From positions 1 to 24,426 of the IMG/VR virus record IMGVR_UViG_3300029473_000227: DNA of 24,426 nucleotides; one strand, given 5' to 3'. The stretch is from a virus. Lineage: Duplodnaviria > Heunggongvirae > Uroviricota > Caudoviricetes. Position 1 is the first letter of the stretch; every line of letters begins with the position of its first letter. Position numbers and translations under genes: made by a program. A model generated the notes under the pieces. That model saw only the letters and a list, made by a program, of their open reading frames with translations. It did not search any database and had not been told where the DNA came from. Shown here piece after piece: positions 1,322 through 14,900 of this stretch.

Positions 1322-1607
1322 CCATTCCAAAGCCCATCTACGGGTGGGCTTGATAATGAAACCAGAATTTATTCTGGGCAACCAGTTACGGCAGTACCAC
1401 GAAACAACCCAAGCCAGTAAGTGGGGAAATAACACTGGCAGCCACTGAAAGATGAACCTCCTGCCTTATGGCAAAAAAGATTCTTTGTGGTGGCAGACTG
1501 ATGGAAAGACATCGGATAGAATAAAACAGTGGCTAGGGTAGCTCCCGAAAAGCGGAATCGTCACCGCCAGCCACTGAATCTATGACGAACAACTAGACGA
1601 GGTTGAT

Positions 1608-1850
1608 ATGAGTGAAATTGATAAAATAATAAATGGTACATGTAACTTTCAATCAATGCCGCCAGGTAGTTATGTAAAACAATGTAGTGAAATAGTTAAT
1701 GGTCAGCTTGTAATGTCAAATGCAGGACGCGGAGTTTCTGCGGATGAAAAAAAATCAATAAATGAAGCCCTGTTAAGCATCAATGTTTTTGACTTGTTTC
1801 GCCCATCTTGGGTTATCTTGCAAAATAGTAACCAATTCCCACATTATTGA
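1608..1850 (+). CDS. hypothetical protein, AT-rich moron
   Basis: 80 aa; GAGG at 1599-1602 with 5-nt spacing to ATG; markedly AT-rich compared with flanks; followed by a weak terminator-like hairpin. No family recognised. Confidence 0.55.
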   Translation: MSEIDKIINGTCNFQSMPPGSYVKQCSEIVNGQLVMSNAGRGVSADEKKSINEALLSINVFDLFRPSWVILQNSNQFPHY

Positions 1851-1867
1851 TAATTAATTATTAAATT

Positions 1868-1890
1868 GGTCGCTAAGTCGGCCTTTTTTA
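1868..1890 (+). terminator. possible weak intrinsic terminator after the moron ORF
   Basis: 5-bp stem ggtcg / cggcc (one G-U), loop ctaagt, then TTTTTTA. Confidence 0.35.
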
Positions 1891-1996
1891 TTGCCATCAC
1901 AAAAGCCATTCCCTACAGAGTGGCTTTGATAATGGCTTATACCCTACACGGGATAACTTAACTGATATCCCTTTTAACGGATAAACGGAGCCAACA

Positions 1997-2239
1997 ATGG
2001 CAGAGATTATTCCCATGACTGAAGAACAGAAATTCCAGTTAGAGGTTTACAAACTGGTCATGAACCAGAACGCAGCCGCAGAAGAAGCATTTCAGTTCAT
2101 TGGTACTGACGAGCTGAAGCTTGAGCTATTCAAAATTCACTTCCAGTCAGGCGGCGCTAATTCAGATATCACGACCCGCACTATCGAAGCGGTGCGTAAA
2201 TCGAAGGAAGCGTTAGACCTGTTCACCGCTGGAGTGTGA
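1997..2239 (+). CDS. hypothetical acidic helical protein; stop lies 1 nt before the HExxH ORF start
   Basis: 80 aa; GGAG at 1987-1990, 6 nt before ATG; stop 2237-2239 and next ATG at 2241. Confidence 0.6.
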   Translation: MAEIIPMTEEQKFQLEVYKLVMNQNAAAEEAFQFIGTDELKLELFKIHFQSGGANSDITTRTIEAVRKSKEALDLFTAGV

Positions 2240-2240
2240 T

Positions 2241-2630
2241 ATGGCTAAGGCCAAATGGCACAAACTCCCGGCGTTCACCATTCCGCTGTTTCAAAGTGCA
2301 CACGTCTACCTCGCAACAACCAGAGAACAGTTTCAGCACGCTGATAAATTCCTTGGCGGCAGCGGGGATGAGAAGCCATTCAATCTTGGGCTTGCAAGCA
2401 ACTATGAAAACACTGATACGGGTGAGCGATGCTATCTGATTGGAGTATTCGATCAGCAGATCGCTACGCTCGTTCATGAGTGCGCCCACGTCTGCTTTTA
2501 CGTTTGCTCTGATGTCGGCGTGACGACAAGGCCTGAAGATGCCAACGAGACGTACTGTTACATGCTGGACAGGATGGTTAATCACTTCCTGCCATTCATT
2601 CAGGAGAAACAAGATGCATCACTGGAATAA
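2241..2630 (+). CDS. HExxH zinc-metallopeptidase-like protein, possibly ImmA/IrrE (COG2856) family
   Basis: 129 aa; GGAG 6 nt upstream; motif LVHECAHV followed 17 residues later by EDANETY, reminiscent of the HExxH...E-x-EAN signature. Family assignment is from motif memory only. Confidence 0.6.
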   Translation: MAKAKWHKLPAFTIPLFQSAHVYLATTREQFQHADKFLGGSGDEKPFNLGLASNYENTDTGERCYLIGVFDQQIATLVHECAHVCFYVCSDVGVTTRPEDANETYCYMLDRMVNHFLPFIQEKQDASLE

Positions 2631-2808
2631 TCAATCCCCTTATTGCCAATGCCAACGCTGCCCGTGCTGCGGGAAGATTGTTAACCAATTTACTGGCAAC
2701 AATTTCTTCAAGACTGGTTATGGATATGGTGTTGCGGGTAGCATTAATTGCTCTGGGGCTGCTGCTGAAACGACATCAAACACAGGCAAGCAGGAAGGAG
2801 CTAAGTAA
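2614..2808 (+). CDS. small cysteine-rich protein (CxCxxCxCC), putative zinc knuckle
   Basis: 64 aa; AGGAGA at 2602-2607, 6 nt before ATG; overlaps the HExxH ORF 3' end by 17 nt. The overlapping alternative frame (2678-2869) is an alternative reading. Confidence 0.4.
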   Translation: MHHWNNQSPYCQCQRCPCCGKIVNQFTGNNFFKTGYGYGVAGSINCSGAAAETTSNTGKQEGAK

Positions 2809-2897
2809 TGGTAATCAACGTTTGTTCAGGCTCTCAGGGCTTCGACAACCCATCCAAATTCCGCGATGAATGGGATAAGCAAGCAGAAGGGAAATAA
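2808..2897 (+). CDS. candidate 29-aa micro-ORF ([29 protein letters not shown]) upstream of terS
   Basis: AAGGAG at 2795-2800 with 7-nt spacing; ATG overlaps the previous stop (TAATG); ends 5 nt before the terS ATG. Too short for the ORF track. Confidence 0.25.
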
Positions 2898-2902
2898 TCA
2901 AT

Positions 2903-3391
2903 ATGGCAGCACCAAAGGGCAACCGATTTTGGGAGGCCCGCAGTAGTCATGGGCGAAATCCTAAATTCGAATCGCCTGAGGCGCTGTGGGCTGCTTGTTG
3001 TGAATACTTCGAGTGGGCTGATGATAACCCGTTATGGGAGGGTAAGGTATTTTCATATCAGGGAGAAATAATTAAGGCTAATGTCCCTAAGATGCGAGCC
3101 ATGACTATTTCAGGATTGTGTACCTTCCTTGATATCACCAGGCAAACATGGGGAACCTTCCGGTCAATGGAAGGTTTTTCTGACGTCACATCACGAGCGG
3201 AAGACATCATCTACGACCAGAAATTCTCTGGCGCAGCCGCTGACCTTCTCAACGCTAACATCATCGCCCGTGATTTGGGCCTCAAAGAGCAGTCGCAAGT
3301 TGAAGACGTGACACCTGATAAGGGAGATCGCGATAAGCGGCGCTCTCGTATCAAGGAGCTATTCAACCGTGGAACTGGACGCGATTCTTGA
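2903..3391 (+). CDS. terminase small subunit (P22 gp3-like)
   Basis: 162 aa, the same length as P22 gp3; N-terminus [38 protein letters not shown] and C-terminus [18 protein letters not shown] match recalled P22 gp3; central region diverged. Confidence 0.93.
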
Positions 3392-4868
3392 TAACCTGAG
3401 CGACGAAGAGCAAATCGAGTTGCTCGAGCTACTCGAAGAAGAAGAGAACTACCGGAACACACACCTGCTATATGAATTTACGCCATACAGCAAACAGCGT
3501 GAGTTCATCGACGCCGGGCATGACTATCCAGAGCGCTGTTTTATGGCTGGTAACCAGCTTGGTAAGTCATTTACTGGTGCTGCTGAAGTCGCGTTTCACC
3601 TTACCGGGCGTTATCCTGGCACAAAAGGCTATCCTGCTGATGGTAAATATGGCGGTGAGTGGAAAGGTAAGCGTTTCTATGAGCCTGTTGTCTTCTGGAT
3701 TGGCGGCGAGACAAACGAGACGGTAACCAAAACGACTCAACGCATCCTGTGCGGTCGTATTGAAGAGAATGATGAGCCGGGCTACGGTTCAATACCGAAA
3801 GAGGACATCATTAGCTGGAAGAAGTCTCCTTTCTTTCCGAACCTTGTTGATCATCTTCTGGTTAAGCATCACACGGCTGATGGCGTTGAAGATGGCATTT
3901 CAATCTGCTACTTCAAACCATACTCGCAAGGCCGCGCTCGCTGGCAGGGTGACACAATCCACGGCGTGTGGTTTGACGAAGAGCCACCATACAGCATTTA
4001 TGGCGAAGGTCTTACCCGTACCAACAAATACGGGCAATTCTCAATTCTGACGTTTACCCCGCTGATGGGGATGTCTGACGTTGTTACCAAGTTCCTGAAG
4101 AATCCCAGCAAGTCGCAGAAAGTGGTCAACATGACCATCTACGACGCTGAGCACTACACAGACGAACAGAAAGAGCAAATCATCGCATCTTATCCTGAGC
4201 ATGAGAGAGAGGCGCGTGCTCGCGGTATTCCTACGATGGGTAGTGGTCGAATCTTCCAGATACCGGAAGAGACAATTAAGTGTCAGCCGTTCGAGTGTCC
4301 TGATCACTTCTACGTAATTGGCGGGATGGATTTCGGATGGGATCACCCACAGGCGCAGGTTCAGCTTTGGTGGGATAAGGACGCAGACACAATCTACGTT
4401 TCACGCGTGTGGAAGGCGAAAGAAAAGACAGCCGTTCAGGCGTGGGGAGCTGTTAAATCATGGGCGCATAAAGTGCCAACAGCATGGCCTCATGACGGAA
4501 ACCAGCACGAGAAGGGCGGCGGTGAGCAGCTCAAAGGGCAGTATGCCGACGCTGGTTTTATGATGTTGCAGGAGCATGCGACATGGCCTGATGGCGGTAA
4601 TGCTGTGGAGCCTGGCATCACTGAATTGCGCGACATGATGCTCGATGGTCGCTTCAAAGTATTCAACACCTGTGAGCCATTCTTTGAGGAGTTCCGCCTC
4701 TATCACCGTGATGAAAACGGGAAGATCGTCAAGCTTAACGACGATGTTCTCTCAGCCGTTCGCTATGCATACATGATGCGCCGCTTCGCCAAAATGATGC
4801 GCGACATCAAAAAACCAAAAGAGAAAAAGATACCAGCCCCAATCAGGCCCATCGCACGGAGAACTTAA
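3369..4868 (+). CDS. terminase large subunit (P22 gp2-like)
   Basis: 499 aa from GTG 3369, overlapping the terS 3' end as in P22; N-terminus [37 protein letters not shown]; same length as P22 gp2. Confidence 0.93.
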
Positions 4869-13535: not shown

Positions 13536-14900
13536 ATGGCTACGTGGCAACAGGGTATTAATTCTGGTGGTTTTCTGGCTGGCATCGGTACGCAAAATGA
13601 GAATGCGCCAAAGGCAAGCGACATTAACGCAACGCTTGGTATGATCCGCGAAAACAATGAACTGGCTCGCTCAGGTGCAAATAACGTTGGCCTGACCGCG
13701 TTACGTGGTCTGGCTGGAGTTGCTGATATTTACAATCAGGAACAGCAACAGAAAGCTATTAGTGCGTTCAATAAGGTTCACGCTGATGCATGGGCTTCTG
13801 GTGATCCATCGGGACTATTTAAGTTTGCCCAGGAAAATCCAGCGTTTGTTGCACAGGCACAACAGGCGTTTTCCGGTCTTAATGATCAGCAACGCAACGA
13901 TATGGGCGATTTAGCCATGAGGGCTAACGTCGCTCTTTCTCAGGGACCGGAAGCCTACAGTAAATTCATTACTGACAACAAGGACAGGTTAAATCGCGTT
14001 GGTGCTAATGCTGACTGGATGATTCAGACAGGTATCCAGAATCCAGAGCAGCTATCACACATGCTGACTACTATGTCTCTCGGTGCGCTTGGACCAGAAA
14101 AGGCGTTTGCTGTTCAGGATAAGATGGTTGGTCGTGAGATTGACCGAGGCCAGCTGGCAGAGACAATCCGCAGCAATAAGGCTGGAGAGGCGCTAACAGC
14201 ACGTGGTCAGAATATCACGATGCGCGGTCAGGATTTATCGATGCAGAGAGCATCAATGAAAGGGTCGGTTGGGAATAATGAGCGTACAGTTCAGTTAGCA
14301 GATGGCAGAACTGTAACGGTAGGCGGGAAGCTTCACGGCGCTGGGGCTAATGCGTTCTACGAAGGTATCGACAACGAGGGGAATATGGTTCGCGTTCCTG
14401 CTGGCTCTATTGCCGCTCCGGCTACATCGGCAGCAAGCGCGCAGAATTACGCAATGAAGAAAGATCTTGATGCAATTTCTGGTGCATCAATTGACGATCT
14501 TGGCTTCATGACTGGCATTACAGGCTCTTCAGGTTCTCCTGCTCTTGGTGCAGATATTCGTAGCCGTGCATCTGGTGGTGATCAGAGGAAACTATACAAC
14601 GCTGCACAGCGAATCCAAGGAAAGATGCAGAATCAGGGCATTGCAGCAGCCAGAGACATGGGGGCATCCGGTATCAACACCGTTGCAGAAGCAAAGATGT
14701 ATTTTCAAGGTATGCCACAGGTTGATTTCTCAAGCCCTGAAGCACTGCAACAATCAATGCGCGACATTCAGCAATATACCGACAATTACAACCAACAATA
14801 TAACGTTAATGTTGGTAAATCTCAGCGGCAGCAATCTCAACCTACACAGGTATCACAGCCAGCAGCCAGCAGTAACTTTTCTTCACTATGGGGTGATTAA
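13536..14900 (+). CDS. ejection protein gp20-like
   Basis: 454 aa; position and size consistent with P22 gp20 (about 470 aa). Confidence 0.8.

What the first reader, a model, noticed from the sequence alone, without database searches (positions are those of the whole stretch)
1987..2630. Coupled 80-aa protein plus HExxH (ImmA/IrrE-like) metallopeptidase-fold protein inside the late operon
Two ORFs with good RBSs are separated by a single nucleotide (stop 2237-2239, ATG 2241). The second has HECAH plus a downstream EDANETY motif resembling the ImmA/IrrE zinc-peptidase signature, but it is only 129 aa and is not paired with an HTH repressor. Expression with late genes would fit a protease acting on a host or phage target, such as anti-defence or repressor cleavage. 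I do not recognise it as a canonical P22 gene.
Basis: partly seen in the sequence, partly recalled or inferred. Interest (0 to 1): 0.65.

Follow-up and report, generated by a model that had tools for sequence, protein, structure and literature searches.

The report
Small phage zinc-protease-like gene beside orf80
The two genes are real: one is the known P22 gene orf80, and the other belongs to a widespread but unstudied family of very small phage proteins with a conserved zinc-protease motif, though the two are only occasional neighbours and not a fixed pair.

Summary
ORF 1997-2239 and ORF 2241-2630 each have a GGAG ribosome-binding site and lie 1 nt apart. HECAH and EDANETY are present in the second ORF.

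The 80-aa protein is P22 Orf80 (Pfam DUF2560, 96% identical). P22 orf80 is reported as nonessential.

The 129-aa protein belongs to PHROG 1365, which carries no functional annotation. Relatives are Orf129 of phages L and ST64T (61%) and HkcC of HK620 and P22 (35%). H79, E80, H83 and E103 are invariant across 128 relatives of 24-50% identity, and dN/dS is 0.06-0.10. A confident AlphaFold model gives the strand and helix order expected of a zincin. The only weak profile hits to solved structures are zinc metallopeptidases.

It is not an ImmA/IrrE member: there is no Peptidase_M78 match and no HTH partner. SprT-like is the nearest Pfam family, but below threshold.

The pairing is facultative. 53 of 79 loci centred on the 129-aa gene have DUF2560 next door, in either gene order. 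Only 7 of 80 DUF2560-centred loci have the 129-aa gene. Alleles reassort freely.

It is most likely a minimal Glu-type zinc hydrolase, carried as an accessory gene in the variable slot between the lysis and terminase genes. Its target is unknown. It is a known, uncharacterised family of modest interest.

The parts
1987..1990 (+). Shine-Dalgarno GGAG, 6 nt upstream of the ORF1 start
   Evidence: read directly from the sequence
1997..2239 (+). 80-aa DUF2560 protein, orthologue of P22 orf80; predicted small four-helix protein, acidic (pI 4.7)
   Evidence: Pfam PF10834 at 147.6 bits; phrog_571; 96% identical to P22 orf80; AF2 model with 4 helices, pLDDT 77.6; dN/dS 0.04-0.3
2231..2234 (+). Shine-Dalgarno GGAG for ORF2, inside the 3' end of ORF1
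   Evidence: read directly from the sequence
2241..2630 (+). 129-aa HkcC/Orf129-family protein (PHROG 1365), a predicted minimal zincin-like metallohydrolase
   Evidence: phrog_1365 at E 1.3e-37; 61% identical to ST64T/L Orf129; AF2 pLDDT 86.5, pTM 0.81; dN/dS 0.06-0.10
2475..2489 (+). HECAH motif (H79 E80 C81 A82 H83) in predicted helix 74-92: proposed metal ligands H79 and H83, and general base E80
   Evidence: invariant in 104 close relatives and 128 distant relatives; helix assignment
2544..2561 (+). N102-E103-T-Y-C-Y107 at the start of predicted helix 103-128: E103 is the proposed third metal ligand
   Evidence: E103 invariant and Y107 at least 90% conserved in 128 distant relatives; helix assignment
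2614..2808 (+). probable third small gene (64 aa, Cys-rich CQCQRCPCCGK motif), with AGGAG at 2602-2606; overlaps the 3' end of ORF2 by 17 nt; not called in RefSeq
   Evidence: sequence; diverged homologue as a separate ORF after DUF2560 in L047; dN/dS 0.2-0.27 in two comparisons; no Pfam, PHROG or PADLOC hit; no CDS annotated there in NZ_CM137002

Best explanation
ORF2 (2241-2630) encodes a stand-alone, minimal zincin-type metallohydrolase of the HkcC/Orf129 family (PHROG 1365).

Inferred mechanism: one Zn2+ is held by H79 and H83 on the active-site helix and by E103 at the start of the next helix. That is a gluzincin-like HExxH-x19-E arrangement. E80 acts as the general base that activates water to cut a peptide bond in a cytoplasmic protein or peptide. 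In this phage it would act late in infection.

It is a non-structural accessory gene. It sits in the variable slot between the lysis cassette and the small terminase gene of a P22-like E. coli prophage.

ORF1 (1997-2239) is the P22 orf80 orthologue (DUF2560). It is a small four-helix accessory protein that is nonessential in P22. It shares this slot and here is translationally coupled to ORF2, but it is not an obligate partner.

Shown: gene reality, family membership, motif invariance, purifying selection, gene context, and facultative pairing. Inferred: metal binding, hydrolytic activity, late expression, and any target.
For: The ORFs, ribosome-binding sites and 1-nt gap are in the sequence. 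ORF1 is DUF2560 and ORF2 is phrog_1365; all 128 diverse relatives fall in phrog_1365.

Only H79, E80, H83 and E103 are invariant across 128 relatives of 24-50% identity. dN/dS is 0.06-0.10.

The AF2 model (pLDDT 86.5, pTM 0.81) has the order strand-strand-helix-strand-strand-helix-helix. HExxH lies in the sixth element and E103 at the start of the seventh. By my knowledge of zincin folds, this is the zincin N-terminal subdomain followed by a 'glutamate helix'.

A family profile searched against all PDB sequences returns nine weak hits, and all nine are zinc metallopeptidases: myroilysin at E 0.009, BMP1 and tolloid astacins, and peptidyl-Lys metalloendopeptidase. HExxH is aligned in the alignments shown.

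Context: the gene lies between Rz and the small terminase gene in most of the 79 close loci, with different terminase types. In a census of 150 neighbours around more diverse members, the commonest families are large terminase, lysozyme, Rz and portal. In other phages it sits in early or right-end accessory regions, which fits an accessory rather than an assembly role.

Pairing with DUF2560 is facultative. P22 orf80 is reported as dispensable for lytic growth and lysogeny (bioRxiv 10.1101/2023.08.15.553423).

Against: No Pfam family reaches threshold. SprT-like scores 12.7 bits against a cut-off of 25.6, and only 4 of 128 relatives reach E<=0.01.

The metal-site geometry could not be measured, because model coordinates are not exposed. 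No experimental data on any family member was found. A weak NCBIfam hit to an aKG-HExxH peptide hydroxylase domain (E 0.0022, 18 bits against a cut-off of 40) shows that HExxH need not mean peptidase. No substrate is identified.
Confidence: 0.6

Rival explanations
1. Counter-defence or host-takeover protease. The zincin cleaves a host immune or abortive-infection factor, for example a sensor triggered by late proteins, or another host protein, and so protects late development. This refines the best explanation by naming a target class.
For: The family sits in variable accessory regions of temperate and virulent phages. One distant member overlaps by 4 nt the end of a Tad2-like gene (PF11195; L092). 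Another lies three genes from an Acb2/Tad1-hairpin gene (L093). Some BFVD structural neighbours are named PolyVal metallopeptidase. By my own knowledge, that domain class has been proposed to act in conflicts between mobile elements and hosts.
Against: That is only 2 of about 12 sampled contexts. No anti-defence family appears among the 25 commonest families in the 150-neighbour census. There is no PADLOC hit and no experimental data. Late expression is an unusual time for counter-defence, unless the target acts late or the protein is packaged into the virion.
Confidence: 0.2
2. ImmA/IrrE-type anti-repressor protease. The protein cleaves a phage or host repressor to switch a regulatory circuit.
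For: It has HExxH with a downstream Glu, as in IrrE/ImmA (by my knowledge). One weak BFVD neighbour is named IrrE (rank 36, TM 0.35). The P22 paralogue hkcC lies in the immI ('ant moron') region next to mnt.
Against: There is no Peptidase_M78 or DUF955 match for the query or for any of 128 relatives. No HTH gene is adjacent in the window or in the related loci examined against a small reference panel. The census of 150 neighbours around diverse members shows no HTH/Xre family in its top 25. The usual position is the lysis-terminase junction of the late operon.
Confidence: 0.05
3. SprT/Spartan-like, DNA-associated protease. The enzyme acts on DNA-bound or DNA-crosslinked proteins, for example clearing proteins from concatemeric DNA before packaging.
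For: SprT-like is the only Pfam family touched at all. Some BFVD neighbours are named SprT-like. A sub-family (mEp phages and E. coli prophages, 173-194 aa) adds a Lys/Arg-rich C-terminal tail. The gene often lies directly upstream of the terminase genes.
Against: The window protein is acidic (pI 5.25) and has no basic tail. No conserved third His or zinc-ribbon follows HExxH; the invariant downstream residue is Glu. The SprT-like score is far below threshold. SPRTN appears only at Foldseek rank 24 with E 0.81.
Confidence: 0.1
4. Obligate two-component module. DUF2560 is the inhibitor, adaptor or substrate of the zincin, as in a protease-inhibitor or toxin-antitoxin-like pair.
For: The genes are 1 nt apart here. 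They are adjacent in 53 of 79 zincin-centred loci, always with gaps of at most 3 nt or a 4-nt overlap, and in both gene orders: DUF2560 then zincin in 46-47 loci, zincin then DUF2560 in 6. Adjacency surviving a change of order suggests linkage.
Against: 25 of 79 zincin-centred loci have no DUF2560. Only 7 of 80 DUF2560-centred loci have the zincin; the others run DUF2560 then orf59c, gp3 or Dec. DUF2560 is found only in enterobacterial sequences (90 clusters), whereas the zincin family has 795 cluster representatives across many phage types. Alleles reassort: the same DUF2560 allele is found with zincins only 60% identical to each other, and the reverse. No fusion proteins were found. Caveat: a trans partner elsewhere in the genome, such as hkcC in P22, is not excluded.
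Confidence: 0.1
5. Not a peptidase. The HExxH...E site binds a metal for a structural role or for different chemistry, for example a hydroxylase-type or other hydrolase activity. Alternatively, the protein is a prophage-expressed, Lit-like exclusion factor.
For: There is no significant match to any solved peptidase fold. There is a weak NCBIfam hit to an aKG-HExxH peptide beta-hydroxylase domain over residues 75-104. P22 hkcC lies beside sieA and mnt; by my knowledge of P22, both are expressed from the prophage.
Against: All nine profile hits in the PDB are peptidases. The invariant Glu after the first His is the catalytic signature of zincins. The family also occurs in virulent N4-like and T7-like phages, which argues against a role only in lysogens. 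There is no PADLOC hit.
Confidence: 0.12

Closest known systems
HkcC (HK620, P22) / Orf129 (phages L, ST64T; ST104 orf47; epsilon34 gp70; g341c gp66) = PHROG 1365
   Same: Same family. 61% identity to ST64T and L Orf129 at the same genomic position. 35% identity to P22 and HK620 HkcC, with HECAH and NETYCY conserved. Both match phrog_1365.
   Different: This is a distinct allele: no phage record in the collection is more than 61% identical. Near-identical copies occur in prophages, for example 16 of 5426 complete E. coli genomes carry the whole arrangement. Here a 64-aa Cys-rich ORF follows the gene instead of Dec. No family member has a described function; the epsilon34 paper lists hkcC as a gene of unknown function (PMC2629481).
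P22 Orf80 / Pfam DUF2560 (PF10834)
   Same: The 80-aa ORF is 96% identical and has the same position upstream of gene 3.
   Different: In P22 it is followed by orf59c, not by the zincin. Its function is unknown. [quoted passage not shown]
SprT-like / Spartan / Wss1 zincins (Pfam PF10263)
   Same: A small alpha/beta HExxH domain. It is the only Pfam family with any signal: 12.7 bits for the query, and a best E of 1e-4 among 4 of 128 relatives. Some BFVD structural neighbours carry this name.
   Different: Below the gathering threshold. The invariant third-ligand candidate is Glu, not His. There is no zinc-ribbon or basic DNA-binding region in the window protein.
ImmA/IrrE (Peptidase_M78, COG2856)
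   Same: A mobile-element-borne HExxH enzyme with a downstream Glu ligand (by my knowledge).
   Different: No HMM match. No paired HTH repressor. About 129 aa with no extra domain. Located at the lysis-terminase junction of the late operon.
Minimal gluzincins (minigluzincins such as proabylysin and projannalysin; selecase), about 100-110 aa; recalled from my own knowledge, not tested here
   Same: Comparable minimal size and the layout HExxH helix followed by a Glu-bearing helix.
   Different: Those are archaeal and bacterial proteins. No sequence or structural match to them appeared in the PDB searches.
PolyVal metallopeptidase (MPTase) domains of polyvalent proteins and ArdC-type proteins of phages and plasmids
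   Same: A zincin borne by mobile elements. One BFVD structural neighbour carries this name (rank 28, E 7.8e-4, TM 0.61).
   Different: Those are domains inside large multidomain proteins, whereas this is a stand-alone 129-aa protein. No Pfam match was found.

Membership tests
Zincin (HExxH metallopeptidase superfamily, gluzincin type) | HExxH on an alpha-helix, conserved across the family | tested here: met
   H79, E80 and H83 are invariant in 104 and in 128 relatives. The motif lies in predicted helix 74-92.
Zincin (HExxH metallopeptidase superfamily, gluzincin type) | Third metal ligand (Glu) on the helix after the active-site helix | tested here: met
   E103 is invariant and lies at the N-terminus of predicted helix 103-128, 19 residues after H83. 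Actual coordination geometry could not be measured.
Zincin (HExxH metallopeptidase superfamily, gluzincin type) | Zincin fold, shown by significant structural similarity to solved members | tested here: inconclusive
Zincin (HExxH metallopeptidase superfamily, gluzincin type) | Zn2+ binding and peptide-bond hydrolysis | not testable with these tools
   Needs biochemistry.
ImmA/IrrE (Peptidase_M78 / COG2856) | Profile-HMM match to the family | tested here: not met
   No Peptidase_M78 or DUF955 hit at E<=1 for the query, and none at E<=0.01 for any of 128 relatives.
ImmA/IrrE (Peptidase_M78 / COG2856) | Adjacent HTH (Xre-type) repressor as partner or substrate | tested here: not met
   Neighbours in the window are DUF2560, a Cys-rich ORF and gp3. 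In related loci, the neighbours identified are Rz, Rha, DUF2560, Dec and terminases; these were matched against a small reference panel, not scanned for HTH domains. The Pfam census of 150 neighbours around diverse members shows no HTH/Xre family in its top 25.
SprT-like (PF10263) | Profile-HMM score at or above the gathering threshold (25.6 bits) | tested here: not met
   12.7 bits, E 0.12, over residues 73-91 only. 4 of 128 relatives reach E<=0.01, best 1e-4.
SprT-like (PF10263) | Third His ligand shortly after HExxH (by my knowledge of Spartan/Wss1) | tested here: not met
   No conserved His lies downstream of H83. The only further invariant residue is E103.
PHROG 1365 (HkcC/Orf129 family) | Full-length profile match | tested here: met
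   E 1.3e-37 over residues 1-126. All 128 diverse relatives match it. P22 HkcC matches at E 1.4e-39.
DUF2560 (PF10834) | Profile-HMM score at or above the gathering threshold (25 bits) | tested here: met
   147.6 bits over residues 5-76, covering the whole 72-position model.
Obligate two-gene module (protease-inhibitor or toxin-antitoxin-like pair) | The two genes co-occur consistently and co-vary | tested here: not met
   25 of 79 zincin-centred loci lack DUF2560. 73 of 80 DUF2560-centred loci lack the zincin next door. Alleles reassort.
Known anti-phage defence systems (PADLOC-DB) | Profile match to a defence-system protein | tested here: not met
   No hit at E<=0.1 for DUF2560, the zincin, the Cys-rich ORF or Dec.

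The most novel reading that the evidence does not exclude
The HkcC/Orf129 family (PHROG 1365) could be a previously unrecognised family of minimal (about 120 aa) phage gluzincins. On this reading its job is to cut a specific host protein, such as an immune or abortive-infection sensor or another host factor that limits late development. That would be a protease-based counter-defence present in the model phages P22, L and HK620 and in N4-like, T7-like and crAss-like phages. DUF2560 and the Cys-rich ORF would be optional co-factors.
Probability: 0.15. Interest if true: 0.7.

Novelty: new member of a known kind. Interest (0 to 1): 0.35.

Why it matters
If the prediction holds, this family is among the smallest zincin-type enzymes. 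It is widespread in phages: 795 clusters at 50% identity. It occurs in genetically tractable model phages, so its target could be found with simple deletions and point mutants.

For this window the practical results are corrective:
- The 80-aa gene is the known, nonessential P22 orf80.
- The 129-aa gene is a known but uncharacterised family, not an ImmA/IrrE protease.
- The apparent operon coupling comes from a shared, highly mosaic gene slot, not from a conserved two-component system.

Tried and rejected
- Single-sequence and close-family profile searches against PDB sequences gave nothing useful. Only the diverse-family profile gave weak hits, all zincins.
- The search for related loci with the very diverse alignment A2 failed because no stretch was conserved enough. 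Sub-alignments were used instead.
- I looked for natural DUF2560-zincin fusions as evidence of interaction. The longer relatives only carry Lys-rich tails or N-terminal extensions, and no long DUF2560 proteins contain a zincin.
- I prepared a linker-fused DUF2560+zincin construct with a paired alignment for complex prediction. I did not submit it, because structure prediction accepts only window proteins and retrieved homologues. The complex therefore remains unpredicted.
- Literature searches for DUF2560, orf80, hkcC, orf129, and SprT-like or HExxH anti-defence proteins found no functional study of either family. The phage L paper that named Orf129 (PMC1064062) is not held.
- The idea that the zincin processes Dec is rejected. 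Epsilon34 Dec loses only its N-terminal Met (PMC2629481), and Dec occurs directly after DUF2560 with no zincin.
- A general link to anti-defence islands was suggested by two contexts, but the 150-neighbour Pfam census did not bear it out.
- hhalign of the family against an adjacent PF18894-like 'HELYH' protein (L116) gave 1.3% probability, so the two are unrelated.
Full report
**1. Observation**

The window is the late region of a P22-like prophage or phage. The gene order is:
- Rz (1-459) and Rha (767-1321);
- an AT-rich island carrying an orphan ORF (1608-1850);
- the two ORFs of the finding;
- gp3 small terminase (2903-3391), large terminase (3369-4868), P22-type portal, scaffold and coat;
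- further downstream, a P22-type antirepressor, a tailspike with the P22 head-binding domain, and an integrase.

ORF1 runs from ATG 1997 to TGA 2237-2239, with GGAG at 1987-1990. ORF2 runs from ATG 2241 to TAA 2628-2630, with GGAG at 2231-2234. One base separates them. HECAH is residues 79-83 and EDANETY is residues 99-105. The description in the finding is accurate.

Near-identical DNA for the whole 1900-2950 stretch occurs in only 16 of 5426 complete E. coli genomes. Parts of it occur in 2565 genomes.

**2. Identity of ORF1**

ORF1 matches Pfam DUF2560 at 147.6 bits against a cut-off of 25. It is 96% identical to P22 orf80, which has the same position in front of gene 3. It is therefore a canonical P22 ORF.

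A P22 strain in which a cassette replaces orf25, pid and orf80 grows lytically and lysogenises. [quoted passage not shown] A viable orf25-orf80 deletion is also reported in PMC11016777.

The family is small and, where sources name an organism, enterobacterial: 90 clusters, with no fusions. AlphaFold gives four helices at moderate confidence (pLDDT 77.6). dN/dS is 0.04-0.3.

**3. Identity of ORF2**

ORF2 matches phrog_1365, a family with no functional annotation, at E 1.3e-37. No Pfam family reaches threshold. The only touch is SprT-like at 12.7 bits against a cut-off of 25.6, over residues 73-91.

By tblastn it is 61% identical to Orf129 of phages L and ST64T, ST104 orf47, epsilon34 gp70 and g341c gp66. 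All of these lie between the lysis genes and gene 3. It is 43% identical to a longer protein of the mEp lambdoid phages.

It is 35% identical to an intact ORF in P22 itself (AF527608 13849-14226, + strand). That ORF lies between sieA and orf59a in the immI region and keeps HECAH and NETYCY. It is hkcC of HK620. It has no CDS in the P22 reference records NC_002371 and BK000583. The epsilon34 genome paper does list it as a P22 gene of unknown function (PMC2629481).

An exhaustive profile search finds 795 cluster representatives at E<=1e-3, nearly all 110-140 aa. All 128 sampled relatives fall in phrog_1365.

**4. Is ORF2 a zincin?**

- In 104 close relatives, 11 columns are invariant, including H79, E80, H83, N102 and E103.
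- In 128 distant relatives (24-50% identity), exactly four columns remain invariant: H79, E80, H83 and E103.
- dN/dS is 0.06-0.10.
- The AlphaFold model is confident (pLDDT 86.5, pTM 0.81). Its elements are strands 11-13 and 20-25, helix 28-37, strands 50-56 and 63-69, helix 74-92 carrying HExxH, and helix 103-128 beginning with E103. From general knowledge of zincin structures, this is the order of the N-terminal sheet, backing helix, active-site helix and 'glutamate helix' of gluzincins. The spacing is HExxH-x19-E.
- The diverse-family profile, searched against all PDB sequences, returns nine weak hits. Every one is a zinc metallopeptidase: myroilysin at E 0.009-0.015, BMP1 and tolloid astacins, and peptidyl-Lys metalloendopeptidase. 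In the alignments shown, HExxH is aligned, and for myroilysin and the astacins the preceding strands are aligned too.
- Against predicted viral structures there are 30 hits at E<=1e-3, from very different phages: Pseudomonas, Ralstonia, Erwinia jumbo, crAss-like, Acinetobacter and Eggerthella phages. The few that carry names are called SprT-like, PolyVal metallopeptidase, Metalloprotease or IrrE.

I conclude that membership of the zincin superfamily is well supported by the motif, its conservation and the topology. It is not proven by fold matching. The protein belongs to no curated peptidase family.

**5. ImmA/IrrE in particular**

No Peptidase_M78 or DUF955 hit appears for the query or for any of 128 relatives. 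No HTH gene is adjacent in the window or among the neighbours identified in related loci. A Pfam census of 150 neighbours around diverse members shows no HTH/Xre family in its top 25. That defining pair of features was tested and not met. The resemblance is limited to the generic HExxH...E pattern.

**6. Is the pair a functional unit?**

I examined 79 IMG/VR loci centred on the zincin.
- 46-47 have DUF2560 immediately upstream, mostly with gaps of 1-3 nt.
- 6 have DUF2560 immediately downstream (gap 2 nt).
- 1-2 have it within or just outside the adjacency window, and 25 have none.

Adjacency in both gene orders looks like linkage, but three results argue against an obligate partnership.
- In 80 loci centred on DUF2560, only 7 have the zincin next door. 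The others run DUF2560 then orf59c then gp3 (the P22 type), DUF2560 then gp3, or DUF2560 then Dec.
- Alleles reassort. The P22-type DUF2560 allele is found with both the window-type and the ST64T-type zincin, which are 60% identical to each other. The ST64T-type zincin is found with DUF2560 alleles only 43% identical to each other.
- DUF2560 is confined to enterobacterial sequences, while the zincin family is far wider.

No fusion of the two exists among the retrieved proteins. The simplest reading is that both are independent accessory genes sharing one mosaic slot. A partner acting in trans, such as hkcC in P22, cannot be excluded. I could not run a complex prediction.

**7. Context and likely role**

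Among close relatives the zincin lies after Rz (sometimes with Rha or small ORFs between) and before the packaging genes, whatever the terminase type. Examples are gp3-type terminases, and a Terminase_2-type 333-aa small subunit that starts 5 nt after the zincin's stop in L026. [quoted passage not shown]

A Pfam census of 150 neighbours around about 25 more diverse members is led by large terminase, lysozyme, Rz, portal families, Q antiterminator and Terminase_2.

More distant members lie elsewhere:
- at the right end of a T7-like genome, after the lysis genes;
- beside the terminase cluster of an N4-like phage;
- in an Erf/SSB/Rha/integrase early region;
- overlapping the end of a Tad2-like gene;
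- three genes from an Acb2/Tad1-hairpin gene;
- next to a ParE toxin module.

This scatter fits an accessory, non-assembly function. The two anti-defence neighbours are suggestive but too few to carry a claim. In the window no promoter-like site precedes ORF1, and only a weak hairpin with a T-run lies upstream at 1868-1883. Expression from the Q-antiterminated late transcript is therefore the likely default; this is inferred, not shown. The protein has no signal peptide or hydrophobic segment on inspection, is acidic (pI 5.25), and has a GRAVY index of -0.27. A cytoplasmic target is expected.

**8. Mechanism I commit to**

A single-domain Zn-dependent hydrolase. H79, H83 and E103 hold the metal, and E80 activates the water. 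Invariant Y107, one helical turn after E103, and the conserved G93 that ends the active-site helix probably shape the site. It cuts a specific cytoplasmic protein or peptide late in infection.

My probability for the metallohydrolase reading with DUF2560 as an independent neighbour is about 0.6. The target class is open. My estimates are about 0.2 for a counter-defence or host-factor target, 0.1 for a SprT-like DNA-associated role, 0.05 for ImmA/IrrE-like repressor cleavage, 0.1 for an obligate DUF2560 partnership, and about 0.12 for a non-peptidase or Lit-like exclusion role.

**9. Novelty and score**

Both genes belong to families that are already catalogued (DUF2560; PHROG 1365, Orf129, HkcC) and annotated as unknown. 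Automated annotation has already labelled some relatives 'SprT-like'. The window adds a new allele and arrangement, not a new kind of system.

What remains open, and is worth a modest effort, is the function of a very small, very widespread phage zincin-like family that is present in P22, L and HK620. Interest: 0.35.

Noticed in passing
window 2614-2808 (+), RBS AGGAG at 2602-2606: A probable third small gene: 64 aa, Cys-rich (CQCQRCPCCGK), pI 8.6. It overlaps the 3' end of the zincin gene by 17 nt and fills most of the gap before gp3. A diverged homologue is a separate ORF after DUF2560 in L047 (6619-6807). dN/dS is 0.2-0.27 in two comparisons. It has no Pfam, PHROG or PADLOC hit, and RefSeq annotates no CDS at the equivalent place in NZ_CM137002.
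   Followed up: partly
L005 (P22, AF527608) 13849-14226 (+); same place in NC_002371.2 and BK000583.1: P22 carries an intact paralogue of the zincin (121-125 aa, 35% identical, HECAH and NETYCY kept) between sieA and orf59a in immI. It is 100% identical to HK620 hkcC. It has no CDS in the P22 reference records, although the epsilon34 paper names it as a P22 gene of unknown function.
   Followed up: yes
window 1500-1950: An AT-rich island (GC 0.34-0.39 against about 0.49 around it) holds an 80-aa orphan ORF (1608-1850) with no Pfam, PHROG or NCBIfam hit. A promoter-like site (1603-1630, 10 of 12 matches) and a terminator-like hairpin with a T-run (1868-1883) flank it. This is the layout of a moron. 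Closely related prophages carry other genes in this stretch, for example GIY-YIG nuclease and DUF551 genes in L001.
   Followed up: partly
L002 (ST64T) 2890-3294, and many IMG/VR loci: The gene directly downstream of the zincin in ST64T-type phages (orf-134) matches the 'head decoration protein' PHROG (phrog_3018, E 8.7e-59) and corresponds to phage L Dec. Its start overlaps the zincin's stop. Dec also occurs directly after DUF2560 with no zincin, so it does not depend on the zincin.
   Followed up: yes
L092 4729-5570; L093 3877-5286: Two distant family members sit beside known anti-defence gene families. One overlaps by 4 nt the end of a Tad2-like gene (PF11195). The other lies three small genes downstream of an Acb2/Tad1-hairpin gene (PF24729). 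A 150-neighbour Pfam census did not show this as a general pattern.
   Followed up: partly
P0116, P0119, P0127, P0128; L003 (mEp021_49) 3001-3585: A sub-family in mEp lambdoid phages and E. coli prophages extends the zincin domain by about 50-65 residues. The extension is an acidic linker followed by a Lys/Arg-rich tail (...KKGKRKPKAKEA.VPRVMSFKRG), possibly a nucleic-acid-binding or targeting tail. The window protein has no such tail.
   Followed up: no
L109 2920-3330; L116 2472-3113: One locus carries a second, very diverged copy of the zincin (HEAAH...EFEAY; hhalign probability 92%). In another locus the zincin is followed directly by an unrelated 214-aa HELYH protein (hhalign probability 1.3%), probably the PF18894 'putative phage metallopeptidase' hit of the census.
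   Followed up: partly
3' end of DUF2560 and 5' end of the zincin gene, window about 2205-2270 and homologous loci: The C-terminus of DUF2560 (...KEALDLFT[AT]G[AV]) and the N-terminus of the zincin (MAK[AT]KW[HP]KLP) stay conserved across otherwise diverged alleles that reassort freely. This is consistent with a conserved junction used for recombination between modules, or with an interaction motif.
   Followed up: no
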